Below, piece by piece: positions 515 to 14,506 of a stretch of 14,506 nucleotides of DNA. Where the stretch lies: IMG/VR virus record IMGVR_UViG_2778261446_000005, positions 1-14,506 of that record, one strand, 5' to 3'. The DNA comes from a virus. Taxonomy: Duplodnaviria; Heunggongvirae; Uroviricota; Caudoviricetes. The notes under the pieces are model-generated. The model saw only the letters and a list, made by a program, of their open reading frames with translations. It had not been told where the DNA came from and searched no databases. How positions within the stretch are numbered: position 1 is the first letter of the stretch; each line of letters starts with the position of its first letter. The position numbers and the translations under genes were made by a program.

Positions 515-526
515 CTGCTACCCCCC

Positions 527-1300: not shown

Positions 1301-1426
1301 TTTGTGTCCCCCCATTTTATGTACGGGGTAATTATAACACATTGAAATATAGTAATATTTGACGTAGATTTCTTTTGATCTATAAGCGATTTTTTAATGC
1401 TTTTAAGTTATAAATACTTGTTTTCA

Positions 1427-2035: not shown

Positions 2036-2289
2036 TGGTCAGCCTCCTGGCGAAACATCATGATTGTCAGATCGCCTTTGGTTGCAAGGCGCACGGTTGT
2101 TCCTGGTTCGATGCTGGACAGGTCAAACGCATCGTAAAATTCATTTACTGCTTTTTGTCTACGAGACAGCCTTCTGCGTTTGTCCCATTGCTTTAGCGCA
2201 ACGGAGATAAACCACTGTCCCGTTTTGAACATGATGAATAACCACCCCATCAGGGCGAGTCCGGTGTTTAGAATGCCCAGAATGCTCAT
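2032..2289 (-). CDS. Small membrane protein, unknown function (85 aa)
   Basis: ORF from track. N-terminal hydrophobic helix (ILGILNTGLALMGWLFIMF) then a basic segment (KRRRLSRRQK). ATGA overlap with the upstream gene at 2286..2289. Confidence 0.5.
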   Translation of the reverse strand: MSILGILNTGLALMGWLFIMFKTGQWFISVALKQWDKRRRLSRRQKAVNEFYDAFDLSSIEPGTTVRLATKGDLTIMMFRQEADQ

Positions 2290-2660
2290 GACTGCACTCC
2301 CTTGCGAAGCTGGTCGGCTAACTCGTCACATATGTGCGTCAAAGAGCAAAGTTTGATTGATGGATGTTCTCGCATCATCTCCACACCCTGCGCACGTACT
2401 TCAGCCAGAAAAGCGTCGGTGGCTGGGGTTTCCGTGAAGTTGTCCTCCCAACCGTAGTACTCCTGACGACAGAAGTTATTAAATTCCTTCTCCGACTGTT
2501 TAAGCGCCGCATTCTCCGCTGCCAGCGCCGCGCACTTGGCCTCCGCTTCAGCAAATTTACGCACCAGATATTCAGCGTTTGTTTCGTTAACCTTTAAATC
2601 TCGTGGGATGCATTTACCTTTCAGAAAACCATCCATCTCAATTAGTGACATTTGTTTCAT
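2286..2660 (-). CDS. Hypothetical protein with predicted coiled-coil segment (124 aa)
   Basis: ORF from track. ATGA overlap with the upstream gene at 2657..2660. Contains [24 protein letters not shown]. No family recognised. Confidence 0.5.
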
Positions 2661-2821
2661 TTCTTCCCACTCCGCAGCATCGCATTCAGATATTTGTTTT
2701 GATTCACTGATGGAAACGAGTTTCTCTTAAGCAATTCCTCTCTCGATGGCATTGGCTTTACGCGTTGGCGAATAATCATTTCTGCCGGAAGAATGCCGGG
2801 ATTGTATGCAAGTCCTCTCAT
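2657..2821 (-). CDS. Small hypothetical protein (54 aa; track ORF runs to 2974)
   Basis: Track ORF 2657..2974 overlaps the upstream 98-aa gene out of frame. Internal ATG at 2821 is preceded by GAGGA at 7 nt spacing and lies just downstream of the 98-aa gene stop (2832..2834), so I take the short form ([33 protein letters not shown]...). Confidence 0.4.
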
Positions 2822-2831
2822 GGTAAATTCC

Positions 2832-3128
2832 TCAGTCATTACTGATAGCGCCATAGCGTGAGCGGTAATTACGCAGGCGCGGGTCGATATATTCAGGGAA
2901 GTGGGTATATGTGGCTTTGCGGAATGGTCGGATTGATGTCTGGTAAATTCGCTCTCGTTCTTCTTTCTCTGCAAGCCATATACAGTGGCGAAATTCCTTT
3001 TCCTCTTTCGTTTCCTGCGGTAGCGACATTATCAGGTCGTAGTTTTTTCTGAATTTATCCAGCACCTCCGATACGGAATTGCCGGAACAGCGGCGCGGGT
3101 CATCCGCACCATACAGAGGCGCTGGCAT
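2832..3128 (-). CDS. Hypothetical protein (98 aa); possibly an Abc-type anti-RecBCD protein by position and size only
   Basis: ORF from track, AAGGAT SD upstream of ATG at 3128. Sits just downstream of erf-ssb, where P22 carries abc1/abc2; I cannot confirm sequence similarity from memory. Confidence 0.45.
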
Positions 3129-3151
3129 AATGGAATCCTTATTTTGCTAAT

Positions 3152-3535
3152 CTAGAATGGAATTGAATCGTCGTATTCAGGATGATTTTGATGATTGCTA
3201 CTTTGCTGCTGTTGGCTGTTTCCTGAAGCTGCAAATCCAATCTTCGCATTCAGTAATTCAAGAGTGATTGATTGACCATTTTGCCCCTGATAAACATCAA
3301 CCCTGATGTTTTCTCCGGTAATTTCTACAATGCCACCTTCAACAAGAACACTACGGTAGTAATCCGCTTGCGCTCCCGGCTTGGCAAATACAACGGCGCT
3401 GTAGTTTGTCCATTCTTTCTTTTTTGTCTGGCGATCGTAATACTGAACGCCAGCACGGATGTTGAATCCGATATTTTCCCCGGCCTGAAACTCTCTTGCG
3501 GGTTTGTTTAGTCTTACAGTAATCGAATGTGCCAT
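3152..3535 (-). CDS. ssb: Phage single-stranded DNA-binding protein (SSB-like, 127 aa)
   Basis: Internal ATG at 3535 (M31 of track ORF 3152..3625) overlaps the erf stop as TAATG. C-terminus ends ...PEYDDSIPF, the acidic D-D-x-I-P-F tail of bacterial SSBs. Gln/Ser-rich linker before the tail. Confidence 0.6.
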   Translation of the reverse strand: MAHSITVRLNKPAREFQAGENIGFNIRAGVQYYDRQTKKKEWTNYSAVVFAKPGAQADYYRSVLVEGGIVEITGENIRVDVYQGQNGQSITLELLNAKIGFAASGNSQQQQSSNHQNHPEYDDSIPF

Positions 3536-4140
3536 TAAGCAGCCGCTCCTTCTAATTCGTCTCGTCTGATGTTGTAAACGTCCTGCGCTTTGTGCTGCTC
3601 CGGTGTGCCTTCGAGCATCTTCCACGCTTTGGCGAACGCCTGTTTAAGCTCTTCTACGGTGTTTTTCTGCAATGCTGCGTCAGTGAATGCTTTTAGAACC
3701 TGTTCAGGTGTAGGTGATGGTTTTGATTGCTTTGCTGCTGCGTTCTGCTGATGTTTATGCTCGTCGGTATCTGCATCTTTCGCATCATCAATGCCGAACA
3801 AACCATTGAGGCAATACTTGCGTGCATAAGAGCTTGTAGCTCCAGTAACTTGTGCAGAATCCATTCCTTTCTTGCTTTCTTCCTCTCGTGCAAGAGCGGT
3901 TGCCGTATGACTGTTTTCGCCATCGGTAATAGTTGCCGTGGCTTTCACGTAATACCGATCACCAATCAACACAACTTCATCGCTGATTGATAAAAACAGA
4001 CCATTCAGTAACGGCTTAACGCCTTCAAGAATGTCTTCGCAGCTTCTGTATTTATATTTACCGAATGAGTTGTACTGATTCTTTGGCGCATTCAGATTCT
4101 CCTGAATGGCTGCCAGTCTTGCGTAAAATTCTTTGCTCAT
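3535..4140 (-). CDS. erf: Erf-family single-strand annealing recombinase (P22 Erf-like, 201 aa)
   Basis: Translation from the ATG at 4140 begins MSKEFYARLAAIQENLNAPKNQYNSFGKYKYRSCEDILEGVKPLL..., matching my recollection of P22 Erf. Track ORF 3535..4170 begins at an upstream TTG. C-terminal third diverges, as expected for mosaic Erf tails. Confidence 0.8.
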   Translation of the reverse strand: MSKEFYARLAAIQENLNAPKNQYNSFGKYKYRSCEDILEGVKPLLNGLFLSISDEVVLIGDRYYVKATATITDGENSHTATALAREEESKKGMDSAQVTGATSSYARKYCLNGLFGIDDAKDADTDEHKHQQNAAAKQSKPSPTPEQVLKAFTDAALQKNTVEELKQAFAKAWKMLEGTPEQHKAQDVYNIRRDELEGAAA

Positions 4141-4150
4141 ATGTTTGTTC

Positions 4151-4321
4151 TCAGAATGGACATTCCCCAAGGAAATAACGCTGATTTAATACTTCGACTC
4201 GGGACAAATTAAGGCATACCCGCATTCCTTCGCGGTCGCCATTATGGCGATACCAGAGAGCTTTCTGCGTGTACATGCGTCTCTGTAACTTGCTCTCCTT
4301 CACTGTGGTTGCAAGTGACAT
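4151..4321 (-). CDS. Small basic protein (56 aa), arf-like by position
   Basis: Manual translation. ATG at 4321 with strong AAGGAGA SD; stop TGA at 4153..4151, 11 nt before the erf start. MSLATTVKESKLQRRMYTQKALWYRHNG... Lies where P22 has arf, but identity is not verified. Confidence 0.4.
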   Translation of the reverse strand: MSLATTVKESKLQRRMYTQKALWYRHNGDREGMRVCLNLSRVEVLNQRYFLGECPF

Positions 4322-4400
4322 GAATATCTCCTTCGTTGCCGATTAAATCTTTCATCTGACGAATGAATTCTTCGTCTGACCAGTTATCTGTGAAACTCAT
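4242..4400 (-). CDS. Small acidic ORF (52 aa), overlaps the 4151..4321 ORF in another frame
   Basis: Manual translation. ATG at 4400 overlaps the kil-like stop as ATGA, with AGGA SD. MSFTDNWSDEEFIRQMKDLIGNEGD... Overlaps the next ORF by 80 nt, so one of the two may be non-coding. Confidence 0.3.
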   Translation of the reverse strand: MSFTDNWSDEEFIRQMKDLIGNEGDIHVTCNHSEGEQVTETHVHAESSLVSP

Positions 4401-4549
4401 TTCCTGCGATACCACGGAAGGTTGATAGCTGATTTCATCGCTTTATTTGCTTCAAGCCACATTTTTGAATCACCAATAAATCGGGCTATTACTGCTTTGT
4501 TCTGTGCAGCACGAAGCATCTGGTGATTGATGGCTATTTCATTGCGCAT
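4397..4549 (-). CDS. kil: Kil-like small host-killing protein (FtsZ inhibitor family, 50 aa)
   Basis: Manual translation MRNEIAINHQMLRAAQNKAVIARFIGDSKMWLEANKAMKSAINLPWYRRK. The motif IA-FIGD-KM matches what I recall of lambda Kil. GAGG SD. Directly downstream of cIII, as in lambda and P22. Confidence 0.55.
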   Translation of the reverse strand: MRNEIAINHQMLRAAQNKAVIARFIGDSKMWLEANKAMKSAINLPWYRRK

Positions 4550-4665
4550 AATAAGACCTCAACTCTTTTCCATCCGTCACGTAATTTACGGGTGATTCGT
4601 TCAAGTAAAGATTCATTTAGTTGGAAGGCACCCATGCGAGCGCCTCCCGCGATTGCGTAAATCAT
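4534..4665 (-). CDS. cIII: CIII-like protease (FtsH) inhibitor (43 aa)
   Basis: Manual translation MIYAIAGGARMGAFQLNESLLERITRKLRDGWKRVEVLLCAMK. The ESLLERITRKLRDGWKR core matches the lambda CIII amphipathic helix. AAGGAA SD upstream of ATG at 4665. Confidence 0.85.
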   Translation of the reverse strand: MIYAIAGGARMGAFQLNESLLERITRKLRDGWKRVEVLLCAMK

Positions 4666-4689
4666 GGGTGGTTCCTTATGTTGGTTTTA

Positions 4690-5658
4690 TTAGTAGGTTA
4701 TTTTTGTTGCGAATACTTCGCCTTTTACGATGGCTGTTATGATATTTTTAGCAACATCTTCTGATGCGCCAACCTTGATAAGGTCAGCAAGTATTTTGTT
4801 ATTTACTTCTTTCCGGTGAGCTTTATCCTTTGCTCTACGCTCTTCTTCGTCCTTGATTCTTTTTTCTTCTGCTATTCTGGCTTGCTCTTTTTCTTCAGCC
4901 TCGCGCCGGATTCGTTCTGCCTCCTCCTGTGCTTTTCGGCGTTCTGCTTCAATTGCTGCCTGCTTTTCTCTTTCAGCTCGTTCTGCTGCCTCTTTTGCTT
5001 CGCGCTGTGCTCGTCGCTCGGCTTCAATGCGTTCACGCTCTGCACGTTCCGCTGCGGCCTTAGCTTCTGCTTCTCGCCTTGCTGCTGCTTCAATTTCGGC
5101 TTTTGCCTTTGCTTCGGCTTCTGCTCTGGCTTTCTCTTCAGCTTCTTTTTTTAAGCGTTCTTCATGCTCTCGCTTTTCCTGCTCCGCTTTGAGTCTTGCC
5201 TCTTCTCTTTGGCGGTCAAATTCGCGATCCATCAAAATCGCTATTTCATGGTCAGACTCAATTTGCTTTGCGAGAGCTTCAGCTGCTGCCTTAGCTTCTT
5301 CTTCGGCTTTAATCCGTGCCTGTTCCTCCTCATAATCAGTAAGAGGCTGGCGCGCCTTGGCTTTCAGTTCATCAAGGCGATCGCGCACTGTCTTGCGGTT
5401 GGCATCAATTAGCTTTGGAATTTCCTTCAGTTCAGCAACAAGGTCTTTGCCAAGACCATCGAGATATGTTTTCGTCTGCGCAACTTTATACGCCAGAGAA
5501 GCGATCTCCTTTCTGCCCTTTGCCGTTGTGATATCAGGCACAAAGGACATAACTTCACGTTCAACCTTTTGGAGAATTTCTTCAATCTGGTCGGCAGACT
5601 GAAATACAGTCATTGCATTTGCTTTTTCAATAACAACTAAATCTGTTACTTCACTCAT
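4690..5658 (-). CDS. Unknown protein (322 aa): about 110-aa N-terminal domain, about 170-aa Glu/Ala/Lys/Arg-rich predicted single alpha-helix or coiled coil, about 40-aa C-terminal domain
   Basis: Track ORF 4690..5754; I place the start at the ATG at 5658 (MSEVTDLVVIEK...) because it is 7 nt after a GGAGG SD and directly after an intrinsic terminator. Central region is repetitive EAK/ERA-type sequence (e.g. EEKARAEAEAKAKAEIEAAARREAEAKAAAERAERERIEAERRAQREAKEAAERAEREKQAAIEAERRK). Confidence 0.7.
   Translation of the reverse strand: MSEVTDLVVIEKANAMTVFQSADQIEEILQKVEREVMSFVPDITTAKGRKEIASLAYKVAQTKTYLDGLGKDLVAELKEIPKLIDANRKTVRDRLDELKAKARQPLTDYEEEQARIKAEEEAKAAAEALAKQIESDHEIAILMDREFDRQREEARLKAEQEKREHEERLKKEAEEKARAEAEAKAKAEIEAAARREAEAKAAAERAERERIEAERRAQREAKEAAERAEREKQAAIEAERRKAQEEAERIRREAEEKEQARIAEEKRIKDEEERRAKDKAHRKEVNNKILADLIKVGASEDVAKNIITAIVKGEVFATKITY
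4850..5340 (-). repeat. Low-complexity coding repeat encoding the E/A/K/R-rich helix
   Basis: Plus strand is pyrimidine-rich with reiterated gcttc/tgctgc/ctcttc units. It generates two spurious plus-strand ORFs (4816..5154, 4853..5335) rich in Cys/Ser/Phe/Leu. Confidence 0.6.
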
Positions 5659-5670
5659 ATATCCTCCATC

Positions 5671-5700
5671 AAAAAAAATTGCCCTCACACGGGAGGGCAA
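5671..5700 (-). terminator. Intrinsic terminator (minus strand) immediately upstream of the ER/K-rich gene
   Basis: Minus strand reads TTGCCCTC-CCGTGT-GAGGGCAA followed by TTTTTTTT (plus 5671..5678 is the A-run). Not followed by a T-run on the plus strand, so it is strand-specific. Confidence 0.7.
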
Positions 5701-5791
5701 AGAAGATTTCCAATAATCAGAACAAGTCGGCTCCTGTTTAGTTACGAGCGACATTGCTCACATAGCAGACTCGTAAATCTGCTATAGGCGC

Positions 5792-5950
5792 TTATTCGCA
5801 TCGCATGACAACATCAAATTTTTCGAGATTACTTTGTCGCAACAATCCTTCTTCGACGCGGTCAGCTTTTCTATAATTATCAAATTCGAAATGTTTAATT
5901 ACTTCTTTCGTTTCTCGATCTATAACTTCAACAATGTATTTCTTATTCAT
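5792..5950 (-). CDS. Small hypothetical protein (52 aa, MNKKYIVEVIDRETKEVIKHFEF...)
   Basis: Manual translation; below the ORF-track cutoff. ATG at 5950..5948 overlaps the upstream gene stop (TAATG). Stop TAA at 5794..5792. Confidence 0.45.
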   Translation of the reverse strand: MNKKYIVEVIDRETKEVIKHFEFDNYRKADRVEEGLLRQSNLEKFDVVMRCE

Positions 5951-6246
5951 TACTCATCACCTATGGCTTTTCTGATTGCTGCGAGACCTTTATTAACAGC
6001 TCCATACCATTCTGGATATGTTGTCGTTGTTCTATTTTTGGATTGCTTAAGTAATAACTGAAGTGCTTCGAGAAGGTCAGGTGCTGCCGCTATTAGATTG
6101 GCATCTTCAATGCATTGAACTTCCTCACAGATTGCAATATACGAACGCCAGCCTGCGCCATTTTCAAGTGAGTCTGCCTGGATGATTTTAATCTCATCGC
6201 CATCCATCATTATTTCCCATTTACCTTCAGTACCTTTAAATTCCAT
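5950..6246 (-). CDS. Hypothetical protein (98 aa) with an Ea22-like IAAAP-LLEAL motif
   Basis: Track ORF 5950..6270; start moved to the ATG at 6246 (MEFKGTEGKWEIMMDGDEIKII...), which has a CAGAGG SD at 7 nt. Contains ...NLIAAAPDLLEALQLLLKQ, resembling the motif in the 1427..2035 protein. Confidence 0.5.
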   Translation of the reverse strand: MEFKGTEGKWEIMMDGDEIKIIQADSLENGAGWRSYIAICEEVQCIEDANLIAAAPDLLEALQLLLKQSKNRTTTTYPEWYGAVNKGLAAIRKAIGDE

Positions 6247-6268
6247 GTTAGCCTCTGTTGTTAGTGCC

Positions 6269-6294
6269 AAAAATAAAGGCCACCATCAGGCAGC
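6269..6294 (-). terminator. Probable intrinsic terminator (minus strand), stop codon of the upstream gene in the loop
   Basis: Minus strand reads GCTGCC-TGAT-GGTGGC followed by CTTTATTTTT. The 6-bp stem needs two G-U pairs that exist only in the minus-strand RNA. Same architecture as the 527..550 terminator. Confidence 0.45.
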
Positions 6295-6537
6295 CTTGTT
6301 GTAAATGTTGCAGGTATCAAGTAAGTAATTAGATGGAGCGCCATAAATTATGAATTCATCGTTTGTAGGGTCAATCTCCATCTCTTGGCCTATTGCCATT
6401 CTTGCGTCAGTGTCATCAGCGGCGAAGCATAAAACAGCCCACGCCCCCATTGTTTTAAAAAGAACTGCAATTGGCTGTGGTTTTACTGAATTTGCGTTAG
6501 CGCGAAAATCACAAATCGCACTTTCATGAAATTCCAT
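6286..6537 (-). CDS. Hypothetical protein (83 aa)
   Basis: ORF from track. GAGGTGA SD upstream of ATG at 6537. MEFHESAICDFRANANSVKPQPIAVLFKTMGAWAVL... No family recognised. Confidence 0.5.
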   Translation of the reverse strand: MEFHESAICDFRANANSVKPQPIAVLFKTMGAWAVLCFAADDTDARMAIGQEMEIDPTNDEFIIYGAPSNYLLDTCNIYNKAA

Positions 6538-6653
6538 ATCTCACCTCAATCGTAATAAGCTGGAATTGATTTTCCGCGTTGCTTCTGGCGGCCTGAACAG
6601 GTCACACCCATTTCACTGTGTGGCTTGCTGTAATAAATTCGGTTAGTTCAGAC

Positions 6654-6676
6654 AATAAAAAACCCACCGAAGTGGG
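6654..6676 (-). terminator. Intrinsic terminator within the early-left operon (tL1-like)
   Basis: Minus strand reads CCCAC-TTCG-GTGGG followed by TTTTTTATT, starting immediately after the TAG stop (6679..6677) of the first gene downstream of N. Confidence 0.7.
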
Positions 6677-7015
6677 CTATGACCATTTTTTATTTGGATT
6701 TCGTTGGTGAGCGTGATTAACAACTCTGTGCATTACATCCTCATATTTTTCATCTTCAATTTTTTCGACATCGCGAGGAAATGGTGTTGCTAATGCTTTG
6801 TCAACTTTGTCCATTGGGTCTTCATTAATCTTATATTCAGGACCGTCATCTATAGCATTAAATCCAGGTGTTACACCGTTTTTTAATGCATATGCTATCC
6901 TCTTTTCCCATCTCGCTATTCTCCTCCTGTCTCGAGATGTAAGACCTCTATCAGATACTTTTCTGTTTTGTCCGCGGTCAGGATTAACATAAATAGTCTT
7001 TTTCACCATAAGCAT
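6677..7015 (-). CDS. Hypothetical basic/acidic protein, first gene downstream of N (about 110 aa)
   Basis: Track ORF 6677..7021 begins at a TTG; ATGs at 7015 and 7009 are the likely starts (MLMVKKTIYVNPDRGQNRKVSDRG...). No SD, 2 nt after the N stop, suggesting translational coupling. Occupies the slot lambda uses for ral. Confidence 0.5.
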   Translation of the reverse strand: MLMVKKTIYVNPDRGQNRKVSDRGLTSRDRRRIARWEKRIAYALKNGVTPGFNAIDDGPEYKINEDPMDKVDKALATPFPRDVEKIEDEKYEDVMHRVVNHAHQRNPNKKWS

Positions 7016-7017
7016 AC

Positions 7018-7323
7018 TCAATAAGCACCGTACGGTAGTTTACTGTACAATTTTATTTTTTGGACTGCATGTATTTTGTTTCCTAACGGGTTTGAATCTT
7101 TGTAATAAATACTTCTATTTTTTCGAACGACTTCTTCTTTCTTCTTGCAGCAAAGGCTTCCTAGTGATGCTGCTTTGTCTGCTCTGACGCAACCAGAGAG
7201 CTTTAGCGCAATTTTTCGCGCCAGTGCTTCATTACTGCGTCGCTCGGCAATAAGTTCTGCTCTGCGAGCTTTGTAGCGGCTTTTTGCCGTACCTTTGGAT
7301 TCTTTCCAGACAATGGTTACCAT
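7018..7323 (-). CDS. N: Antitermination protein N, phage phi21 type (101 aa)
   Basis: Translation from the ATG at 7323 begins MVTIVWKESKGTAKSRYKARRAELIAERR, the arginine-rich motif I recall for the phi21 N boxB-binding peptide. AAGGAGA SD 6 nt upstream. The in-frame ATG at 7353 has no SD. Located just downstream of pL and nutL. Confidence 0.85.
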   Translation of the reverse strand: MVTIVWKESKGTAKSRYKARRAELIAERRSNEALARKIALKLSGCVRADKAASLGSLCCKKKEEVVRKNRSIYYKDSNPLGNKIHAVQKIKLYSKLPYGAY

Positions 7324-7433
7324 GATGGTCTCCTTTAAGTGGCTTTGGCGCATGACGCGTCGAGGTGCTTATCTTCTCGATCGCTGTCTTGCAGCTGCAA
7401 TTCGCGCCATCCCCAAAACCACTCAAGTTCTGG

Positions 7434-7474
7434 TCTCAACGGTTAGGTTGAGAGTCCGTCGATGTTAAAGAGCC
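7434..7474 (-). promoter_or_regulatory. nutL: boxA (7464..7474) and boxB hairpin (7434..7453)
   Basis: Minus strand reads GCTCTTTAACA (boxA consensus) then, 10 nt later, TCTCAAC-CTAACC-GTTGAGA (7-bp stem, 6-nt loop). The loop CUAACC is shared with the nutR hairpin at 8584..8601. Confidence 0.7.
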
Positions 7475-7514
7475 TGCCAATCTGTTCCGTTTGGCTTCCA
7501 GCGTCCTGCTGATG

Positions 7515-7580
7515 GCTTAAATTTAAGACTTCTTAATTTATTGGTCAAGTGCATTTTTGAAGAAAACTTAATTTTATGGG
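7515..7580 (-). promoter_or_regulatory. pL promoter with OL operator sites
   Basis: Minus strand has TTGACC (plus 7543..7548), a 17-nt spacer and TAAATT (plus 7520..7525). Overlapping palindromic P22-type operator half-sites AATTAAGAAGTCTTAAATT, and a second AATTAAG...CTTCAAAA site upstream of the -35. Confidence 0.6.
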
Positions 7581-7613
7581 CGTGAATTTAGTTTATCCTT
7601 GATTTTTAACGGG

Positions 7614-7637
7614 AAATAAAAAAGGGGCGAAAGCCCC
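7614..7637 (-). terminator. Intrinsic terminator immediately after the c2 stop
   Basis: Minus strand reads GGGGC-TTTC-GCCCC followed by TTTTTATTTCCC. The c2 stop TAA is at 7640..7638. No T-run follows the hairpin on the plus strand. Confidence 0.75.
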
Positions 7638-8288
7638 TTAAGGAAGGTTTGCTAGCTTGGCATCAACGACAACGCCAATGATTTTACAGTTCCCATTGAT
7701 TTCAATCATTGGGTATTGTGGATTGAGTGGTTTCAGGAATTTTCTACCGGCATCAATAACTAACTTTTTGAATGTCGCCTCGTTTTCTCCTTCAAGTTTG
7801 GCGACTACCAGCTTTCCATTACGTGGTTCGACTTCTGGGTCGACGAGAATAATCATCCCCTCAGGAATACTCAGTCCTGCCGGGGCAGTCATTGAATCGC
7901 CTTTAACGTCGAGCCAAAAAGAGTCTTCAGAACAATCTACCGTTGTGTCGTACCAGTTATCTATTGCACGCCTATGATATGGCTCTACAGCTTCCATCCA
8001 ACATCCTGCGCTTACCCAACTAATTAGAGGATACGAACCTCTTGGATCATGCCTGCTGTGATAGGCAATGTTTGAAAGACTATCCTCTCCTTTCAACAGG
8101 TAATCAGGGGAGCACTGCAAAGCCTTGGCTAAGGCCAATAGGTTTTCGCCATTGGGCTCAGTTTCAGATCGCTCCCATTGGGAAATAGCAACATTAGACA
8201 CGCCAACCATCTTGCCAAGGGCAGCCTGCCTAATCTTGAGTTCTTTTCTGCGAGCGCGAATACGCTCACCCATCAGTTGTGTATTCAT
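7638..8288 (-). CDS. c2: Prophage repressor, P22 c2 type (CI-like, HTH plus LexA-like S24 autocleavage domain, 216 aa)
   Basis: Translation MNTQLMGERIRARRKELKIRQAALGKMVGVSNVAISQWERSETEPNGENLLALAKALQCSPDYLL... matches my recollection of P22 C2 almost throughout. C-terminal domain has the G-D-S-M and K-L motifs of RecA-cleavable repressors. Divergently oriented to cro. Confidence 0.9.
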   Translation of the reverse strand: MNTQLMGERIRARRKELKIRQAALGKMVGVSNVAISQWERSETEPNGENLLALAKALQCSPDYLLKGEDSLSNIAYHSRHDPRGSYPLISWVSAGCWMEAVEPYHRRAIDNWYDTTVDCSEDSFWLDVKGDSMTAPAGLSIPEGMIILVDPEVEPRNGKLVVAKLEGENEATFKKLVIDAGRKFLKPLNPQYPMIEINGNCKIIGVVVDAKLANLP

Positions 8289-8360
8289 AGTTAAGACATC
8301 TTAAATAAACTTGACTTAAGATTCCTTTGGTGGATAATTTAAGTGTTCTTTAATTTCGGA
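8289..8360. promoter_or_regulatory. OR operator region with pR (rightward) and pRM (leftward)
   Basis: Three P22-type operator palindromes: AGTTAAGACATCTTAAAT (about 8290..8307), CTTAAGATTCCTTTGG, and ATTTAAGTGTTCTTTAAT (about 8337..8354). pR -35 TTGACT at 8311..8316 and -10 GATAAT at 8333..8338. c2 ATG at 8288 abuts the leftmost operator (leaderless-type arrangement). Confidence 0.7.
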
Positions 8361-8368
8361 GCGAGTCT

Positions 8369-8554
8369 ATGTACAAAAAAGATGTTATTGACCACTTCGG
8401 AACCCAGCGTGCTGTTGCTAAAGCACTAGGCATTAGCGATGCAGCAGTCTCTCAGTGGAAAGAAGTTATCCCAGAGAAAGACGCCTATCGATTGGAAATC
8501 GTTACAGCTGGCGCCCTGAAGTATCAAGAAAGTGCTTACCGCCAAGCGGCATAA
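8369..8554 (+). CDS. cro: Cro repressor, P22 type (61 aa)
   Basis: Translation MYKKDVIDHFGTQRAVAKALGISDAAVSQWKEVIPEKDAYRLEIVTAGALKYQESAYRQAA matches my recollection of P22 Cro. GGAG SD upstream. Confidence 0.85.
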   Translation: MYKKDVIDHFGTQRAVAKALGISDAAVSQWKEVIPEKDAYRLEIVTAGALKYQESAYRQAA

Positions 8555-8560
8555 GCAAAT

Positions 8561-8601
8561 TGCTCTTTAACAGTTCTGGCCTTTCACCTCTAACCGGGTG
8601 A
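8561..8601 (+). promoter_or_regulatory. nutR: boxA (8561..8572) and boxB hairpin (8584..8601)
   Basis: TGCTCTTTAACA matches the boxA consensus. Eleven nt later, TCACC-TCTAACCG-GGTGA forms a hairpin (alternatively CACCU-CUAACC-GGGUG with a G-U pair), sharing the CUAACC loop with nutL. Confidence 0.7.
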
Positions 8602-8669
8602 GCAAACATCAGCGGCAAATCCATTGGGTGTGCCGCTATAACTCAATATCAATATAGGAAAATTAACAA

Positions 8670-8966
8670 ATGGCACAAGCAAGCTACAGCAAGCCAACAC
8701 AGCGAGAAATTGATCGCGCTGAAACTGATTTACTCATCAACCTGTCAACGCTTACCCAGCGCGGTCTGGCAAAGATGATTGGCTGTCATGAATCGAAGAT
8801 AAGCAGAACGGACTGGAGATTTATTGCTTCGGTTCTGTGTGCTTTCGGAATGGCATCAGACATCAGTCCGATTAGCAGGGCTTTTAAGTATGCGCTTGAT
8901 GGACTCGCAAAGAAAAAATCCCCGGCTGCCACCGAGGATTCTGAGCAAATTGATATGCAATTCTGA
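8670..8966 (+). CDS. cII: CII-like transcriptional activator (98 aa)
   Basis: Same architecture as lambda CII; C-terminus KKKSPAATEDSEQIDMQF resembles lambda KKRPAATERSEQIQMEF. AGGAAA SD upstream. Position between cro/nutR and O. Confidence 0.75.
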   Translation: MAQASYSKPTQREIDRAETDLLINLSTLTQRGLAKMIGCHESKISRTDWRFIASVLCAFGMASDISPISRAFKYALDGLAKKKSPAATEDSEQIDMQF

Positions 8967-8989
8967 GGTCATTACTGGATCAATCCACA
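8908..8989 (-). ncRNA. Candidate oop-like antisense RNA overlapping the 3' end of cII
   Basis: Minus strand has a terminator inside the cII 3' end: TCCTCGG-TGGCA-CCGGGGA (7-bp stem with one G-U pair, pairs only in the minus-strand RNA) followed by TTTTTTCTTT (plus A-run 8912..8918). About 80 nt upstream on the minus strand is a -10-like CATAAT (plus 8996..9001) with a weak -35. Size and position mirror lambda oop. The 5' end is inferred. Confidence 0.45.
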
Positions 8990-8998
8990 GGAGTAATT

Positions 8999-9160
8999 AT
9001 GACAAAACGTCGTAAGAAATACCAGGAAAAAGAAGAGATTCGACACCCTGATTCACCTGAGGGATTAGTGGTAGCCGCAGCAAATAACAGGGCGTTCGCA
9101 GAGCGCCTTGTTGGTGTTTACAGACTAGCCAAAGCAGGAGTGAAACATGGGCGTCGTTAA
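8999..9160 (+). CDS. Small basic ORF between cII and O (53 aa, MTKRRKKYQEKEEIRHPDSPEGL...)
   Basis: Manual translation. AGGAG SD 6 nt upstream of the ATG. Stop overlaps the O start by 14 nt. Below the track cutoff. Confidence 0.35.
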   Translation: MTKRRKKYQEKEEIRHPDSPEGLVVAAANNRAFAERLVGVYRLAKAGVKHGRR

Positions 9161-9977
9161 GTTAGCTGATTACAGGCCTCAACTGGAGGTCGTGGAGCAT
9201 CGCGTGGCAGAACTCGAAGATGGCTACACTCGGACTGCAAACACACTGTTAGAAGCCGCCATGCTTTCTGGACTTACTCTACATCAGTTACTGATTGTTA
9301 TGGCTGTGTGGCGCAAGACATACGGTTACAACAAAAAAATAGATTGGATCGGAAACGAACAGTTCGCTGAACTCACTGGCATGGCACCAACCAAATGCTC
9401 TACCGCCAAAAACGAGCTTATCAGAATGGGAGTTCTCATTCAGGTGGGGCGTCAAGTTGGTATGAATACAAACATTTCCGAGTGGAAAACGAAAGTTAAC
9501 GGATTCGGTAAAACATTTACTAATTCGGTAAAACAAACCTTCACCAAATCGGTAAAAAGCAATTTACCGAATCAGTCAAACACAAAAGACAATATACAAA
9601 AGACAATAAATACAAATACCCCCTTACCCCCTAACGGGGGCGGCGATGGGCAGGTTAAACCTGAACGTCGCAAGGCAGAACGAATCGACTACGAATCCTT
9701 CCTGAACGCCTACAACACCGAAGTCGGTGACAGACTTCCACACGCTGTTGCGGTCAACGAGAAACGCAAACGCCGCCTGAAGAAAATCATCCCGCAACTG
9801 AAAACGCCAAACGTGGACGGTTTCAGAGCGTATGTCAGGGCGTTTGTACATCAGGCCAAGCCGTTTTACTTCGGAGACAACGACACTGGCTGGACGGCAG
9901 ATTTTGATTACCTGCTGAGGGAAGATTCGTTAACGGGAGTACGGGAAGGGAAGTTTGCAGACAGGGGGATTGCATGA
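9147..9977 (+). CDS. Replication initiator, lambda O-like (P22 gene 18 type, 276 aa)
   Basis: N-terminal domain is clearly homologous to lambda O as I recall it ([15 protein letters not shown] vs LDDGYARLSNMLLEA; WRKTYGYNK; NISEW). AGGAG SD. Contains the iteron origin internally. C-terminal domain differs from lambda O, consistent with pairing to a DnaB-type helicase rather than lambda P. Confidence 0.8.
9500..9640 (+). repeat. Replication origin inside the O-like gene: iterons, AT-rich region, GC hairpin
   Basis: Three direct copies of (A/T)TCGGTAAAA(C/A) at about 9503..9514, 9523..9534 and 9548..9559, plus an inverted TTACCGAAT at 9564..9572. AT-rich tract 9577..9620. Then CCCCC-TAAC-GGGGG at 9627..9640. 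Layout parallels lambda ori. Confidence 0.7.
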
Positions 9978-11350
9978 GACAGGATATCGAAGCGAGCGTT
10001 ATCGGTGGCCTGCTGATTGGTGGATTAACTCCAACCGCCAGCGACGTTCTGGCAACGCTGGAGCCGGAAGCGTTTTCAATTCCGCTCTACCGGAAAGCCT
10101 TCGAGGTTATCCGCAAGCAGGCGAGAAACAGAAACCTAATCGATGCGCTGATGGTTGCCGAGGCGTGCGGAGAGGAGCATTTCACGTCAATCCTGATGAC
10201 CAGCAAAAACTGCCCGAGTGCCGCAAACCTGAAGGGATATGCCGGAATGGTCGCGGATAACTATCACCGCCGTCTGGTGCTGGAAATCATAGATGAAATG
10301 CGTGAACCAATCCAAAGCGGAACCATCGACGCATCGAGTCAGGCGATGGATGAACTTGTAAAACGTCTCTCAGCCATCAGAAAACCCCGTGACGAGGTTA
10401 AACCTGTACGGTTAGGGGAAATCATCACCGACTACACTGACACGCTTGACAGGCGTCTGAGGAACGGAGAAGAGTCCGATACCCTGAAGACCGGAATCGA
10501 AGAACTTGATGCCATCACCGGAGGGATGAACGCGGAAGACCTGGTGATAATCGCTGCTCGTCCTGGTATGGGGAAAACCGAACTGGCGCTGAAGATTGCC
10601 GAAGGCGTTGCAAGCCGCGTTATTCCTGGTTCTGACGTCCGGCGCGGGGTATTGATTTTCTCAATGGAAATGAGCGCATTGCAGATTGCAGAGCGAAGCA
10701 TTGCCAACGCCGGGAGGATGTCGGTTAGTGTGCTGCGAAATCCTGCAGCGATGGATGACGAAGGCTGGGCGCGCGTTGCTAACGGCATGAGTCAGCTTGC
10801 AGATTTGGATGTATGGGTAGTCGATGCCTCGCGGTTATCGGTAGAAGAAATTCGCTCAATCGCAGAACGGCACAAACAGGAAAATCCAAACCTGTCACTC
10901 ATCATGGCGGATTATCTTGGCCTGATTGAGAAGCCGAAAGCAGATCGCAACGACCTCGCAATTGCTCACATCTCCGGAAGCCTGAAGGCGATGGCGAAAG
11001 ACCTGAAAACGCCCGTTATCTCCCTGAGTCAGCTTTCGCGCGATGTTGAGAAGCGACCAAACAAACGCCCGACAAACGCAGATTTGCGTGATTCAGGAAG
11101 CATTGAGCAGGACGCAGACTCAATCATCATGCTCTATCGGGAAGCGGTATATGACGAGAACAGTAGCGCCGCGCCATTTGCTGAAATCATCGTGACGAAA
11201 AACCGTTTTGGCTCGCTTGGTACAGTTTACCAGCGGTTCTGTAACGGACACTTTGTTGCATGTGACCAGGATGAAGCCAGACAGATTTGCACAGCATCAA
11301 ATGCACCTGCTGCGCGTGGCAGACGATATGCACAAGGGGCTGACGTATGA
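9974..11350 (+). CDS. DnaB-family replicative helicase (P22 gene 12 type, 458 aa)
   Basis: ATGA overlap with the O-like gene. N-terminal DnaB-like domain; Walker A motif in [15 protein letters not shown]; RecA-like C-terminal domain with the DnaB-type [12 protein letters not shown] and IIMLYRE motifs. Confidence 0.85.
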
Positions 11351-11375
11351 CCATCTACATCACTGAGCTAATAAC

Positions 11376-11407
11376 AGGCCTGCTGGTAATCGCAGGCCTT
11401 TTTATTT
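11376..11407 (+). terminator. Intrinsic terminator between the helicase and ninB (tR2-like)
   Basis: AGGCCTGC-TGGTAATC-GCAGGCCT (8-bp stem) followed by TTTTTATTT. Same position as lambda tR2, upstream of the nin region. Confidence 0.8.
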
Positions 11408-11423
11408 GGGGGAGAGGGAAGTC

Positions 11424-11864
11424 ATGAAAAAACTAACCTTTGAAATTCGATCTCCAGCACATCAGCAAAACGCTATTCACGCGGTACAGCAAATTCTTCC
11501 AGACCCAACCAAACCAATCGTAGTAACCATTCAGGAACGCAACCGCAGCTTAGACCAGAATCGAAAGCTTTGGGCTTGCCTTGGTGACGTCTCTCGTCAG
11601 GTTGAATGGCATGGTCGCTGGCTGGATGCAGAAAGCTGGAAGTGTGTGTTTACCGCAGCATTAAAGCAGCAGGATGTTGTTCCTAACCTTGCCGGGAATG
11701 GCTTTGTGGTAATAGGCCAGTCAACCAGCAGGATGCGTGTAAGCGAATTTGCGGAGCTATTAGAGCTTATACAGGCATTCGGTACAGAGCGTGGCGTTAA
11801 GTGGTCAGACGAAGCGCGACTGGCTCTCGAATGGAAAGCGAGATGGGGAGACAGGGCGGCATGA
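11424..11864 (+). CDS. ninB: NinB (Orf-family recombination mediator)
   Basis: Translation from the ATG at 11424 ([53 protein letters not shown]...) matches my recollection of lambda NinB. Track ORF starts 6 codons upstream. Confidence 0.85.
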
Positions 11865-12037
11865 GACGACAGCGACGAAGTATCACCGACATAATCTGTG
11901 AAAACTGCAAATACCTTCCAACGAAACGCTCCAGAAATAAACGCAAGCAAATCCCAAAAGAATCTGACGTAAAAACCTTCAACTACACGGCTCACCTGTG
12001 GGATATCCGGTGGCTAAGACATCGTGCGAGGAAATGA
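11861..12037 (+). CDS. ninD: NinD (58 aa, zinc-ribbon-like small protein)
   Basis: ATGA overlap with nin[59 protein letters not shown] matches my recollection of lambda NinD. Track ORF starts upstream, inside ninB. Confidence 0.75.
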
Positions 12038-12039
12038 CA

Positions 12040-12402
12040 ATGGATTATTCACAGTTAAGTGATTTTGAAATTAACTTAAAAATCGCGCATATCGTGCTAG
12101 GAAAAAACAATTACGACTGGGATCCAGAAAAGAAAGAAGTTTGCTTAGCTGGAATTGATGGTGGTGAGTTTTTGCCTTGTGGATATTTCGACCCATGTAA
12201 TAGGGCCGCTGACGCATATCCGATCATCACTGAAAACAAAATTAGCACCATGTGGATGACAGCGGAAAAAGAATGGTGCGCATGGTCAGGAGGTGATTTA
12301 GAGGAAGGTTGTTGGGTTCCTGACTACTGCTTCTGCGGTGAATCGCCTCTCCGCGCAGCCATGATTGTATTTCTAATGATGCAGGTCGCTAATAATGCTT
12401 AG
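12040..12402 (+). CDS. Cys-rich nin-region protein (about 120 aa), possibly NinX-like
   Basis: Track ORF 11998..12402; likely start is the ATG at 12040 (MDYSQLSDFEINLK...), 8 nt after GAGGA. Occupies the position of lambda ninE but is larger and Cys/Trp-rich. The NinX name is a low-confidence recollection. Confidence 0.5.
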   Translation: MDYSQLSDFEINLKIAHIVLGKNNYDWDPEKKEVCLAGIDGGEFLPCGYFDPCNRAADAYPIITENKISTMWMTAEKEWCAWSGGDLEEGCWVPDYCFCGESPLRAAMIVFLMMQVANNA

Positions 12403-12571
12403 CCCATCCCAAACCCTTCAATACCAGAAAGAAAGCGTCGAGCGAGCTTTAACGTGCGCTAACTGCGGTCAGAAGCTGCATGTGCTGGAAGTTCACGTGT
12501 GCTCAGATTGCTGCGCAGAACTGATGAGCGATCCGAATAGCTCAATGTACGAGGAAGAAGATGATGGCTAA
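12395..12571 (+). CDS. ninF: NinF (58 aa)
   Basis: Manual translation [58 protein letters not shown], matching my recollection of lambda NinF. Overlaps the upstream stop; below the ORF-track cutoff. Confidence 0.7.
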
Positions 12572-13175
12572 ACCAGCGCGAAGACGATGTAAAAACGATG
12601 AATGCCGGGAATGGTTTCACCCTGCATTCGCTAATCAGTGGTGGTGCTCTCCAGAGTGTGGAACCAAGATAGCACTCGAACGACGAAGCAAAGAACGCGA
12701 AAAAGCGGAAAAAGCAGCAGAGAAGAAACGACGACGAGAGGATCAGAAACAGAAAGATAAACTTAAGATTCGAAAACTCGCCTTAAAGCCCCGCAGTTAC
12801 TGGATTAAACAAGCCCAACAAGCCGTAAACGCCTTCATCAGAGAAAGAGACCGCGACTTACCATGTATCTCATGCGGAACGATCACGTCTGCTCAGTGGG
12901 ATGCCGGACATTACCGGACAACTGCTGCGGCACCTCAACTCCGATTTGATGAACGCAATATTCACAAGCAATGCGTGGTGTGCAACCAGCACAAAAGCGG
13001 AAATCTCGTTCCGTATCGCGTCGAACTGATTAGCCGTATCGGGCAGGAAGCAGTAGACGAAATCGAATCAAACCATAACCGCCATCGCTGGACTGTCGAA
13101 GAGTGCAAGGCGATCAAGGCAGAGTACCAACAGAAACTCAAAGACCTGCGAAATAGCAGAAGTGAGGCCGCATGA
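12561..13175 (+). CDS. ninG: NinG / Rap (recombination-promoting structure-specific endonuclease)
   Basis: Translation [42 protein letters not shown]... matches my recollection of lambda NinG. Overlaps the ninF stop. Confidence 0.85.
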
Positions 13176-13378
13176 CGTTCTCAGTAAAAACCATTCCAGA
13201 CATGCTCGTTGAAGCATACGGAAACCAGACAGAAGTAGCACGCAGACTGAAATGTAGTCGCGGTACGGTCAGAAAATACGTTGATGATAAAGACGGGAAA
13301 ATGCACGCCATCGTCAACGACGTTCTTATGGTTCATCGCGGATGGAGTGAAAGAGATGCGCTATTACGAAAGAATTGA
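13172..13378 (+). CDS. ninH: NinH (68 aa)
   Basis: ATGA overlap with nin[69 protein letters not shown] matches lambda NinH as I recall it. Confidence 0.8.
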
Positions 13379-14027
13379 TGGCAGCAAATACCGAAATATT
13401 TGGGTAGTTGGCGATCTGCACGGATGCTACACGAACCTGATGAAAAAACTGGAGACGATAGGATTCGACACCAAAAAAGACCTGCTTATCTCGGTTGGCG
13501 ATTTGGTTGATCGCGGTACAGAGAACGTCGAATGTCTGGAATTAATCACATTCCCCTGGTTCAGAGCTGTACGTGGAAACCATGAGCACATGATGATTGA
13601 TGGCTTATCAGAGCGTGGAAACGTTAATCACTGGCTGCTTAATGGCGGTAGTTGGTTCTTTAATCTCGATTACGACAAAGAAATTCTGGCTAAAGCTCTT
13701 GCCCATAAAGCAGATGAACTTCCGTTAATCATCGAACTGGTGAGTAAAGGTAAAAAATATGTCATCTGCCACGCCGATTATCCTTGTGACGAATACGAGT
13801 TTGGAAAGCCAGTTGATCATCAGCAGGTAATCTGGAACCGAGAACGAATCAGCAACTCACAAGACGGGATCGTGAAAGAAATCAAAGGAGCGGACACGTT
13901 CATCTTTGGTCATACGCCAGCAGTGAAACCACTCAAGTTTGCCAACCAGATGTATATCGATACCGGCGCAGTGTTCTGCGGAAACCTCACATTGATTCAG
14001 GTACAGGGAGAAGGCGCGTGGGCATAA
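13356..14027 (+). CDS. ninI: NinI Ser/Thr protein phosphatase (lambda PPase family, calcineurin-like metallophosphoesterase)
   Basis: Translation from the ATG at 13356 ([54 protein letters not shown]...GNHE...) has the GDxHG / GDxxDRG / GNHE metallophosphatase motifs and matches lambda protein phosphatase as I recall it. Track ORF starts upstream, inside ninH. Confidence 0.85.
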
Positions 14028-14506
14028 GAGAACTAAACCTCACCAAAGAGCAGCACGAGTGGCTGAATGGCTGGCTTGAACTGTGGGGCGCATGGGTTTA
14101 TTCAGGTCGTCTGGAAAAGCGCATGAGCAGCGTAATAGCGAAGTTCATGGAGAGCGTAGAGCCGGGAAGAGTTATGACAAGGCCAATGTGTAATGATGAT
14201 GATGGAATGTTGATTTCTCAGGTCGTCGATTCCGTCATGTACATTGACAAGAAAGCCTTTGGCATCCTCCTCAGCTACTACGCCCACGGCTCTTCCAAGC
14301 ACGCCATTGCATCTTACTATCATCGCGTCGCAAGACCTCGCAAGATGTTATGCCGGGGCGGCGGGCGCATTCAAAAACCATCGCTCGCAACCTGTCGACG
14401 GGAAGTTGACGAAATCCTCAATGCCTCGTTGTTTATGATTTACCCGGTTCTGGATAGTGCGTTTAAAAACCGGAAACGTGTAGAGAAAATTAAACATGTA
14501 GCATAG
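14018..14506 (+). CDS. Q: Late-gene antiterminator Q (non-lambda Q family, about 162 aa)
   Basis: Immediately downstream of the nin cluster, where Q lies in lambdoid phages. Size and the W-x-GAW and C-x-DDD-M motifs resemble the phi21/82-type Q proteins as far as I recall. Start is a GTG at 14018 overlapping ninI by 10 nt; no in-frame ATG nearby. Stop coincides with the window end. Confidence 0.55.

What the first reader, a model, noticed from the sequence alone, without database searches (positions are those of the whole stretch)
9500..9640. Replication origin embedded in the O-like gene, with non-lambda iterons
Three direct and one inverted copy of a TCGGTAAAA-type iteron, an adjacent 44-bp AT-rich tract and a GC-clamp hairpin lie in the linker between the N- and C-terminal domains of the initiator. 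The layout parallels lambda ori but the iteron sequence differs, implying a distinct initiator-DNA specificity. The iterons are in frame and encode the repeated peptide [18 protein letters not shown].
Basis: partly seen in the sequence, partly recalled or inferred. Interest (0 to 1): 0.35.

Follow-up and report, generated by a model that had tools for sequence, protein, structure and literature searches.

The report
Known P22-type phage replication origin
The repeats are real and mark the replication origin inside a lambdoid prophage's initiator gene, but it is the long-known phage P22 type of origin, so the finding is correct and ordinary.

Summary
Window 9496-9640 contains four iterons, an A-rich tract and a short C5/G5 inverted repeat. 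All lie inside a 276-aa Phage_rep_O gene (9147-9977) that is followed by a DnaB-type helicase gene.

It is not new. Window 9470-9648 is 93.9% identical to phage P22 gene 18. The `rep_origin` feature in a P22 GenBank record maps exactly onto 9496-9640.

- The iterons are four 17-bp imperfect palindromes (TTTACCGA-N-TCGGTAAA), not three direct copies plus one inverted copy.
- Their spacing is 20/24/23 bp, the same as in lambda.
- They sit in three reading frames, so only iterons 2 and 3 produce a repeated peptide. The hairpin is weak.

In 84 related or reference loci scored, the iteron class always follows the type of the initiator's N-terminal domain. It is independent of the C-terminal domain. 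This supports a distinct initiator-DNA specificity.

The gene is a mosaic: a P22-type N-domain and iterons, and an HK97-type C-domain and helicase, joined at the shared AT tract. Copies at least 99% identical occur in at least 12 complete E. coli genomes.

Verdict: already known; low interest.

The parts
9147..9977 (+). O-like replication initiator gene (276 aa), homologue of P22 gene 18 and HK97 gp54. It is a mosaic: up to ~9208 HK97-like, ~9179-9640 P22-like, and from ~9580 onward HK97/BTP1-like.
   Evidence: ORF list and translation. Pfam Phage_rep_O, E = 4e-36. Alignments. Binned identity to P22, HK97 and BTP1.
9201..9485 (+). Coding region of the N-terminal Phage_rep_O domain (aa 19-113). 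Predicted helix-rich fold ending in a beta hairpin; presumed iteron-binding domain.
   Evidence: Pfam. AlphaFold2 pLDDT 75-91 over aa ~30-115. Only weak Foldseek hits, all to winged-helix regulators, E > 0.1.
9496..9512 (.). Iteron 1, TTAACGGATTCGGTAAA (2 mismatches to the dyad consensus).
9516..9532 (.). Iteron 2, TTTACTAATTCGGTAAA. It carries a synonymous C>T at 9521 relative to otherwise identical IMG/VR copies.
9540..9556 (.). Iteron 3, TTCACCAAATCGGTAAA.
9563..9579 (.). Iteron 4, TTTACCGAATCAGTCAA.
9580..9618 (.). A-rich, AT-rich tract (79% AT; 26 A on the top strand). It contains a 14-bp tandem repeat, ACAAAAGACAATAT/ACAAAAGACAATAA, at 9582-9609. Presumed DNA-unwinding element. It is shared nearly unchanged by the P22 and HK97 classes, and its first ~12 bases are shared with lambda.
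9627..9640 (.). Short inverted repeat, CCCCC-TAAC-GGGGG, at the right edge of the annotated P22 ori. Weak as a hairpin; function not established.
   Evidence: for the fold. for retention of C-run/G-run symmetry in relatives with different amino acids. for the right boundary of the P22 `rep_origin` feature.
9678..9974 (+). Coding region of the C-terminal domain (aa ~178-276). It is HK97/BTP1-type: ~100% identical to HK97 gp54 and ~55% to P22 gp18. Presumed helicase-recruiting domain.
9974..11350 (+). DnaB-type replicative helicase (458 aa). 99% identical to HK97 gp55 and 90% to P22 gp12 over the ~395 aa compared. Its start overlaps the stop codon of the O gene.
   Evidence: Pfam DnaB and DnaB_C. 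BLASTP.

Best explanation
Window 9496-9640 is the origin of bidirectional (theta) replication of a lambdoid prophage or phage of E. coli or Salmonella. It belongs to the P22 specificity class and lies inside the phage's own initiator gene.

Proposed mechanism, by homology with lambda:
1. Dimers of the initiator's N-terminal domain bind the four dyad-symmetric 17-bp iterons (TTTACCGA-N-TCGGTAAA; spacing 20/24/23 bp) and wrap them into an O-some-like complex.
2. On supercoiled DNA this destabilises the adjacent A-rich tract (9580-9618).
3. The initiator's HK97-type C-terminal domain brings in the phage's own DnaB-type helicase (9974-11350). No lambda P-type loader is needed.

Shown here:
- the sequence elements, their non-random nature and their geometry;
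- identity with the annotated P22 ori;
- co-inheritance of iteron class with N-domain type;
- the mosaic joints.

Inferred, not tested: binding, unwinding, helicase recruitment and bidirectionality.
For: - The four dyad iterons are all in 9496-9579, against 0.03 expected per window.
- The segment is 93.9% identical to P22 gene 18. The P22virB-3 record annotates 32840-32984 as 'bi-directional replication origin similar to phage lambda', which maps to window 9496-9640.
- The annotated lambda iterons start at 39034, 39054, 39078 and 39101. This is the same 20/24/23 spacing, the same ~349-nt offset into the gene, and the same ACACAAAAGACA immediately after iteron 4.
- The gene is Phage_rep_O and is followed by a DnaB helicase gene.
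- Survey of the window, 6 reference records and 80 IMG/VR loci (87 sequences; 84 scored after dropping 3 decayed copies). The window and all 28 loci with a P22-type N-domain (86-100% identity) carry P22 iterons, whatever their C-domain (48-100% identity). All 53 loci with an HK97-type N-domain (37-43% identity) carry TTAGCC..GGCTAA iterons, although in 51 of them the C-domain is 99-100% identical to the window's.
- Within the P22 class, 24% of iteron columns and 19% of AT-tract columns vary, against 61% of spacer and flank columns.
- The iterons occupy three reading frames, so the repeat is conserved as DNA rather than as peptide.
- Literature: the P22 18 gene has four ~20-bp repeats different from lambda's (PMC8022706). 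Each lambda iteron is an inverted repeat bound by O, and the AT-rich tract is the unwinding site (PMC7466680).
Against: - No experiment on this sequence, and none retrievable here on P22 ori itself. The P22 GenBank annotation is itself 'by similarity' to lambda.
- The AT tract is not the most AT-rich or least stable 40-mer in the window.
- The hairpin is no more stable than shuffled sequence.
- The window may come from a prophage whose replication competence is unknown.
Confidence: 0.9

Rival explanations
1. The repeats are a by-product of a repeated peptide in a low-complexity protein linker (TFTxSVK repeats). They would then be selected at the protein level and would not be a DNA-binding array.
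For: Iterons 2 and 3 are 24 bp apart and encode TFTNSVK and TFTKSVK. Some relatives expand the peptide repeat in frame, for example P0027 with seven TFTESVK-like units.
Against: - Iterons 1 and 4 lie in the other two reading frames and encode unrelated peptides (VNGFGK, NLPNQSN), yet keep the DNA motif.
- Each unit is a DNA palindrome, which has no meaning at the peptide level.
- The segment is predicted to be disordered.
- The motif class tracks the DNA-binding N-domain.
Confidence: 0.03
2. The sequence is of ori type but is a silent relic. On this reading the window comes from a defective prophage in which the origin is no longer used.
For: Frameshifted or truncated copies of this same gene exist in other prophage contigs: L026 and L027 are frameshifted, and L084 is cut after aa 164. 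The window's overall arrangement is not matched end to end by any phage or genome record searched; the best coverage was 55-74%.
Against: - In the window the initiator and helicase ORFs are intact and overlap as in functional phages.
- The repressor, cro, cII, ninB, ninG and related genes are present.
- BTP1, an inducible functional phage, has the same P22-N/HK97-C architecture at 95% identity.
- Copies at >=99% identity appear in at least 12 complete E. coli genomes, and 34 genomes hold a near-full-length copy.
Confidence: 0.07
3. The iteron array serves mainly as a regulatory or titration site rather than as the start site of replication. Examples would be initiator autoregulation or handcuffing, exclusion of co-infecting phages of the same replication type, or a structure sensed by host defence.
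For: Plasmid-borne lambda iterons together with oop inhibit rep-lambda phages but not a lambda hybrid carrying P22 genes 18-12 (PMC3349717). Lamassu LmuB is enriched at the lambda iterons during replication (PMC12663957).
Against: These roles are secondary consequences of origin function in lambda and do not exclude it. The adjacent conserved AT tract and the conserved geometry are explained only by origin function.
Confidence: 0.03

Closest known systems
Phage P22 ori within gene 18 (Backhaus & Petri 1984, Gene 32:289, citation seen; GenBank rep_origin in OQ031658.1)
   Same: - 93.9% DNA identity over window 9470-9648.
- The same four iterons, AT tract and C5/G5 repeat, with the same boundaries (9496-9640).
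- N-domain 95% identical.
   Different: - The C-terminal domain of the initiator is only ~55% identical to P22 gp18.
- The helicase is 90% identical to P22 gp12 but 99% to HK97 gp55.
- The first 13 codons are HK97-like.
- A few iteron and spacer substitutions, for example TTTACTAAT in the window against TTTACCAGA in P22 in iteron 2.
Salmonella phage BTP1 gene o (and phages P6, vB_ST415_1NRH)
   Same: The same overall mosaic: P22-type N-domain and iterons, HK97-type C-domain, DnaB-type helicase. 95% DNA identity over 96% of the gene.
   Different: The extreme 5' end of the gene (first ~30 nt) is P22-like in BTP1 and HK97-like in the window.
Phage lambda ori (four iterons ITN1-4 plus AT-rich tract inside gene O)
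   Same: - Origin inside the initiator gene, at the same codon position.
- Four dyad-symmetric iterons with the identical start-to-start spacing of 20/24/23 bp.
- The AT tract starts ACACAAAAGACA immediately after iteron 4.
- Homologous N-domain, 46% identical over the segment compared.
   Different: - Iteron sequence is ATCCCTCAAAACGAGGGA in lambda, against TTTACCGAATCGGTAAA here.
- The C-domain is unrelated (about 20% identity).
- Lambda uses the P loader to capture host DnaB, whereas this module encodes its own DnaB-type helicase.
- Lambda has a different inverted repeat to the right of the AT tract.
HK97/HK446-type ori in gp54 (also many Stx phages; the 'Eru2' replication module of PMC8044961)
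   Same: Identical AT tract, C5/G5 repeat, C-domain and helicase. The same iteron geometry.
   Different: Different iterons (TTAGCCAAGTCGGCTAA type) and a different N-domain (43% identity).
Stx phage 933W/P27 origins with six lambda-type iterons
   Same: Lambdoid ori inside O. Iteron number can vary by in-frame duplication, as in relatives of this class (P0027; PMC7466680).
   Different: Those origins carry lambda-class iterons and use O/P. The window has four P22-class iterons and a DnaB-type helicase.

Membership tests
Lambdoid 'ori-in-O' replication origin | Origin elements lie inside the coding sequence of a Phage_rep_O-family initiator, between its N- and C-terminal domains. | tested here: met
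   Pfam Phage_rep_O covers aa 19-113. The elements encode aa 117-165. AlphaFold2 gives pLDDT below 50 over aa 118-177.
Lambdoid 'ori-in-O' replication origin | An array of about four ~18-bp iterons, each with internal dyad symmetry, at ~20-24-bp phasing. | tested here: met
   Four 17-bp imperfect palindromes at 9496, 9516, 9540 and 9563, with spacing 20/24/23. This is identical to the annotated lambda iterons.
Lambdoid 'ori-in-O' replication origin | An AT-rich, strand-asymmetric tract immediately to the right of the last iteron. | tested here: met
   9580-9618 is 79% AT and is the most A-rich 40-mer of the window. It starts with the same 12 nt as the lambda tract.
Lambdoid 'ori-in-O' replication origin | The initiator's N-terminal domain binds the iterons specifically. 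| not testable with these tools
   Indirect support only. Iteron class and N-domain type are co-inherited in the window, the 6 reference records and the 77 IMG/VR loci scored, independently of the C-domain.
Lambdoid 'ori-in-O' replication origin | The fragment supports initiator-dependent replication (origin activity). | not testable with these tools
The P22 annotation is itself by similarity to lambda.
P22 specificity class of lambdoid origins | Iteron consensus TTTACCGA-N-TCGGTAAA, paired with a P22 gp18-type N-domain. | tested here: met
   Iteron DNA is 94% identical and the N-domain 95% identical to P22. The alignment is ungapped.
P22 specificity class of lambdoid origins | Coincidence with the annotated P22 `rep_origin` feature. 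| tested here: met
   OQ031658.1 32840-32984 corresponds to L003 1527-1671, which maps to window 9496-9640 through the ungapped match L003 1501-1679 = window 9470-9648.
P22 replication module as a whole (genes 18 + 12 of P22) | C-terminal domain of the initiator and helicase of P22 type. | tested here: not met
   The C-domain is ~55% identical to P22 but ~100% to HK97. The helicase is 90% identical to P22 gp12 and 99% to HK97 gp55. The module is a P22/HK97 hybrid, as in BTP1.

The most novel reading that the evidence does not exclude
The most novel reading not excluded has three linked parts.

1. The lambdoid origin is a fixed scaffold. The dyad centres of the four iterons sit at identical distances from the invariant ACACAAAAGA tract in at least six specificity classes: lambda, P22, HK97, L086, K. 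aerogenes TGTCAC..GTGACA and Cronobacter TTACCCGAATCAGGTAA.
2. The AT tract doubles as the universal recombination joint. Through it, 'N-domain + iteron' specificity cassettes are swapped between helicase-recruitment modules.
3. The C-run/G-run inverted repeat to the right of the tract is a functional ori element, conserved as DNA rather than as the PLPP..GG peptide.
Probability: 0.25. Interest if true: 0.3.

Novelty: already known. Interest (0 to 1): 0.1.

Why it matters
It matters mainly for annotation. The segment can be labelled as a P22-class lambdoid origin, and the gene as a P22/HK97 hybrid initiator.

The specificity class predicts which co-resident lambdoid phages or lambda-dv-type plasmids could cross-activate or titrate each other's initiators. 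Origin iterons have also recently been implicated as the place where the Lamassu defence system engages replicating lambda DNA (PMC12663957).

None of this changes current understanding. The architecture, the modular exchange of N-domain plus iterons, and the P22 iterons themselves are textbook lambdoid biology.

Tried and rejected
- Rfam gathering-threshold scan of the whole window: no RNA family, so the element is not a known structured RNA.
- Sequence search of the initiator against PDB chains: only chance hits with E >= 0.28.
- Foldseek of the AlphaFold2 model against PDB: no hit with E <= 0.001. The top weak hits are all winged-helix regulators, which is suggestive only.
- Folding the GC 'clamp' as DNA: -5.4 kcal/mol, z = +0.42. 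I therefore do not count it as significant evidence on energetic grounds.
- AT content and nearest-neighbour stability alone do not single out the tract within the window; intergenic regions at ~1346-1390, ~5869 and ~12044 are as AT-rich or less stable. Only the A-strand bias does.
- Promoter scan of 8500-10100: no sigma-70-like site inside the O gene.
- Full-text searches for 'P22 ori', 'oriP22' and similar terms found no experimental paper in the held library. Vander Byl & Kropinski 2000 (PMC94795) is not held, and one search call failed on term length.
- Peptide-repeat explanation: rejected because of the three reading frames and the palindromic units.
- Chance: rejected.

Full report
**1. 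What is in the sequence**

Window 9147-9977 (+) is a 276-aa ORF. Residues 19-113 match Pfam Phage_rep_O with E = 4e-36.

The ORF overlaps by 4 nt the start of a 458-aa DnaB-type helicase gene at 9974-11350, which matches Pfam DnaB and DnaB_C.

Upstream lie these genes:
- an S24/HTH repressor, 7638-8288 (-)
- a P22-type Cro, 8369-8554
- a CII homologue, 8670-8966
- a 53-aa ORF, 8999-9160 (phrog_1331)

This is the early-right operon of a lambdoid phage or prophage.

**2. Check of the observation**

- TCGGTAAAA occurs exactly at 9505, 9525 and 9549. A one-mismatch copy lies on the other strand at 9562-9570.
- The repeat finder shows that each unit is longer than this and pairs as an inverted repeat with the fourth unit.
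- Written as a dyad, TTTACCGAWTCGGTAAA matches four times with 2 mismatches each, at 9496-9512, 9516-9532, 9540-9556 and 9563-9579. It matches nowhere else in the window. The expectation is 0.03, and 0 of 200 shuffles reach four matches.
- The array is therefore four imperfect 17-bp palindromes, as in lambda, not 'three direct plus one inverted'.
- The tract 9575-9618 is 77% AT with 28 A against 6 T. It is the most A-rich 40-mer in the window but only about the fourth most AT-rich, and it is not the least stable by nearest-neighbour energy.
- The tract contains a 14-bp tandem duplication, ACAAAAGACAATAT/ACAAAAGACAATAA.
- The 'GC clamp' is CCCCC(9627-9631)-TAAC-GGGGG(9636-9640). As single-stranded DNA it folds at -5.4 kcal/mol with z = +0.42, no better than shuffles.
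However, the iterons start at ORF offsets 1, 0, 0 and 2 modulo 3. Only iterons 2 and 3 are in the same frame and give TFTNSVK and TFTKSVK.
- The AlphaFold2 model was built from a 30-sequence alignment (mean pLDDT 61.5). It has a confident N-domain (aa ~30-115), pLDDT below 50 over aa 118-177, and a moderately confident helical C-domain. The ori (aa 117-165) does fall in a probable flexible linker.

**3. What it is**

- Window 9470-9648 aligns without gaps at 93.9% identity to phage P22 gene 18.
- The curated P22virB-3 record annotates 32840-32984 as 'bi-directional replication origin similar to phage lambda'. Through the ungapped match this is exactly window 9496-9640, running from the first base of iteron 1 to the last base of the C5/G5 repeat.
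- The literature describes this element. [quoted passage not shown]
- The original sequence analysis is Backhaus & Petri 1984. I saw the citation, but I could not read the paper.
- For lambda, each iteron is an imperfect inverted repeat bound by O, and the AT-rich tract is where unwinding occurs (PMC7466680).

**4. Relation to lambda**

- The annotated lambda iterons start at 39034, 39054, 39078 and 39101. Their spacing of 20/24/23 bp is identical to the window's.
- Iteron 1 begins 348-349 nt into the gene in both phages.
- In both, the last iteron is followed directly by ACACAAAAGACA.
- The layout is therefore homologous to lambda's, not merely parallel. Only the iteron sequence differs: ATCCCTCAAAACGAGGGA in lambda against TTTACCGAATCGGTAAA here.

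**5.

I collected 80 related IMG/VR loci and added P22, BTP1, HK97, HK446 and lambda. Of the 87 sequences (the window, 6 reference records and 80 IMG/VR loci), 84 could be scored; the other 3 were decayed copies (L026, L027, L084).

| N-domain type | Sequences | N-domain identity to window | Iteron class | C-domain identity to window |
|---|---|---|---|---|
| P22-type | 29 (the window + 28 loci) | 86-100% | P22 class, all 29 | 48-100% |
| HK97-type | 53 | 37-43% | TTAGCC..GGCTAA class, all 53 | 99-100% in 51; 92% and 67% in the other two |
| L086 (intermediate) | 1 | 65% | intermediate (TTAGC..TGCTAA) | 49% |
| Lambda | 1 | 46% | lambda class | 20% |

There was no case of an N-domain type paired with a foreign iteron class.

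Within the P22 class there are 15 distinct ori sequences. Columns vary in 24% of iteron positions and 19% of AT-tract positions, against 61% of spacers and flanks. The outer arms, TTTAC and TCGGTAAA, are almost invariant.

Further homologues show additional classes on the same geometry:
- K. aerogenes: TGTCAC..GTGACA
- Cronobacter: TTACCCGAATCAGGTAA
- L090: TTTACCGAAACGGTAAA

This pattern is what is expected if the N-domain reads the iterons. It remains indirect evidence.

**6. Mosaic structure**

Binned identity and alignments give the following picture.

| Segment | Closest type |
|---|---|
| up to ~9208 | 100% HK97-like |
| ~9179 to ~9640 | P22-like |
| ~9580 onward | HK97-like |

- The two switch zones are segments shared by all types: the LEVVEHRVA codons and the AT tract.
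- The helicase is 99% identical to HK97 gp55 and 90% to P22 gp12, so the C-domain and helicase travel together.
- Salmonella phage BTP1 has the same architecture at 95% identity.
- Another homologue, P0055, joins a lambda-type N-domain and linker to the same C-domain at the same joint.
- Near-full-length copies of the gene occur in 34 of 5,426 complete E. coli genomes, and at least 12 of these are >=99% identical.
- No single phage or genome record searched matches the whole window. The best coverage was 55-74%.

**7. Mechanism**

By homology with lambda, the proposed steps are:
1. N-domain dimers bind the four iterons and bend or wrap the DNA.
2. The adjacent A-rich tract opens on supercoiled, transcriptionally activated DNA.
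3. The C-domain recruits the phage-encoded DnaB-type helicase.

The sequence anatomy, the homology and the covariation are shown here. Every biochemical step is inferred.

**8. Rivals**

- A peptide-level repeat is excluded by the three reading frames and the palindromic units.
- A silent relic in a defective prophage cannot be excluded. Decayed copies exist elsewhere (L026, L027, L084). In the window, however, all genes of the module are intact.
- Regulatory, titration or defence-sensing roles are add-ons to origin function, not alternatives to it.

**9. Verdict**

This is a correct rediscovery of the P22-class lambdoid origin in a P22/HK97 hybrid initiator gene. It is already known, and interest is low.

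Two minor points may not be commonplace:
- the exact invariance of iteron geometry across many specificity classes;
- the retention of a C-run/G-run inverted repeat to the right of the AT tract despite amino-acid changes.

Neither has been tested for function.

Noticed in passing
window 8915-8942 (- strand): A terminator-like hairpin with a T run on the minus strand, overlapping the 3' end of the cII-like ORF (8670-8966). This is the position of the oop antisense RNA terminator annotated in P22 and known in lambda. No Rfam family matched.
   Followed up: partly
window 9147-9208 and 9580-9640: Two recombination joints of the mosaic initiator gene. The sequence is HK97-like to the left of ~9208 and to the right of ~9580, and P22-like in between. 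The right joint is the shared AT tract.
   Followed up: yes
window 9521: A synonymous C>T in the left arm of iteron 2 (TTTACT instead of TTTACC). It distinguishes the window from eight IMG/VR copies that are otherwise identical across the ori region, and it moves the iteron further from the dyad consensus.
   Followed up: partly
L026, L027 (~1501-2327); L084 (1501-1992): IMG/VR prophage contigs carrying the same initiator gene in decayed form. L026 and L027 have a frameshift in the N-domain. L084 is truncated after aa 164, just to the right of the C5/G5 repeat.
   Followed up: partly
proteins P0027 and P0028: Iteron-number expansion by in-frame 24-bp duplications. The Trabulsiella guamensis homologue has about seven TFTESVK units, and an HK97-class homologue has one extra TLAKTANK unit. 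This is analogous to the six-iteron origins of Stx phages.
   Followed up: no
L087 ~655-745; L089 ~640-730; L090 ~640-735; L086 ~1850-1937: Further iteron specificity classes with dyads at the same distances from the AT tract: TGTCAC..GTGACA (K. aerogenes), TTACCCGAATCAGGTAA (Cronobacter), TTTACCGAAACGGTAAA (L090) and TTAGC..TGCTAA (L086). The Cronobacter class uses the P22 TTACC/GGTAA arms set 2 bp further apart.
   Followed up: partly
window 9617-9640 and the same place in L024, L028, L079, L086, L090: A C-run/G-run inverted repeat to the right of the AT tract persists while the encoded residues change (PPNGGG, PPEGE, DPPKSPKGE, TPHEVKGGE). L079 has a different 6-bp-stem inverted repeat there (GTCATCttgcGATGAC). 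This may be a DNA-level constraint, but the hairpin is weak.
   Followed up: partly
window 887-1345 (+): A 152-aa ORF with no PHROG family match at E <= 1e-5, on the strand opposite to the neighbouring early-left genes.
   Followed up: no
window 1-14506: The window is a mosaic of lambdoid modules: Erf-like annealing protein, N-like antiterminator, S24 repressor, P22-type Cro, CII, O/DnaB replication genes, NinB, NinG and NinI. No single phage or E. coli genome record matches it over more than 55-74% of its length.
   Followed up: partly
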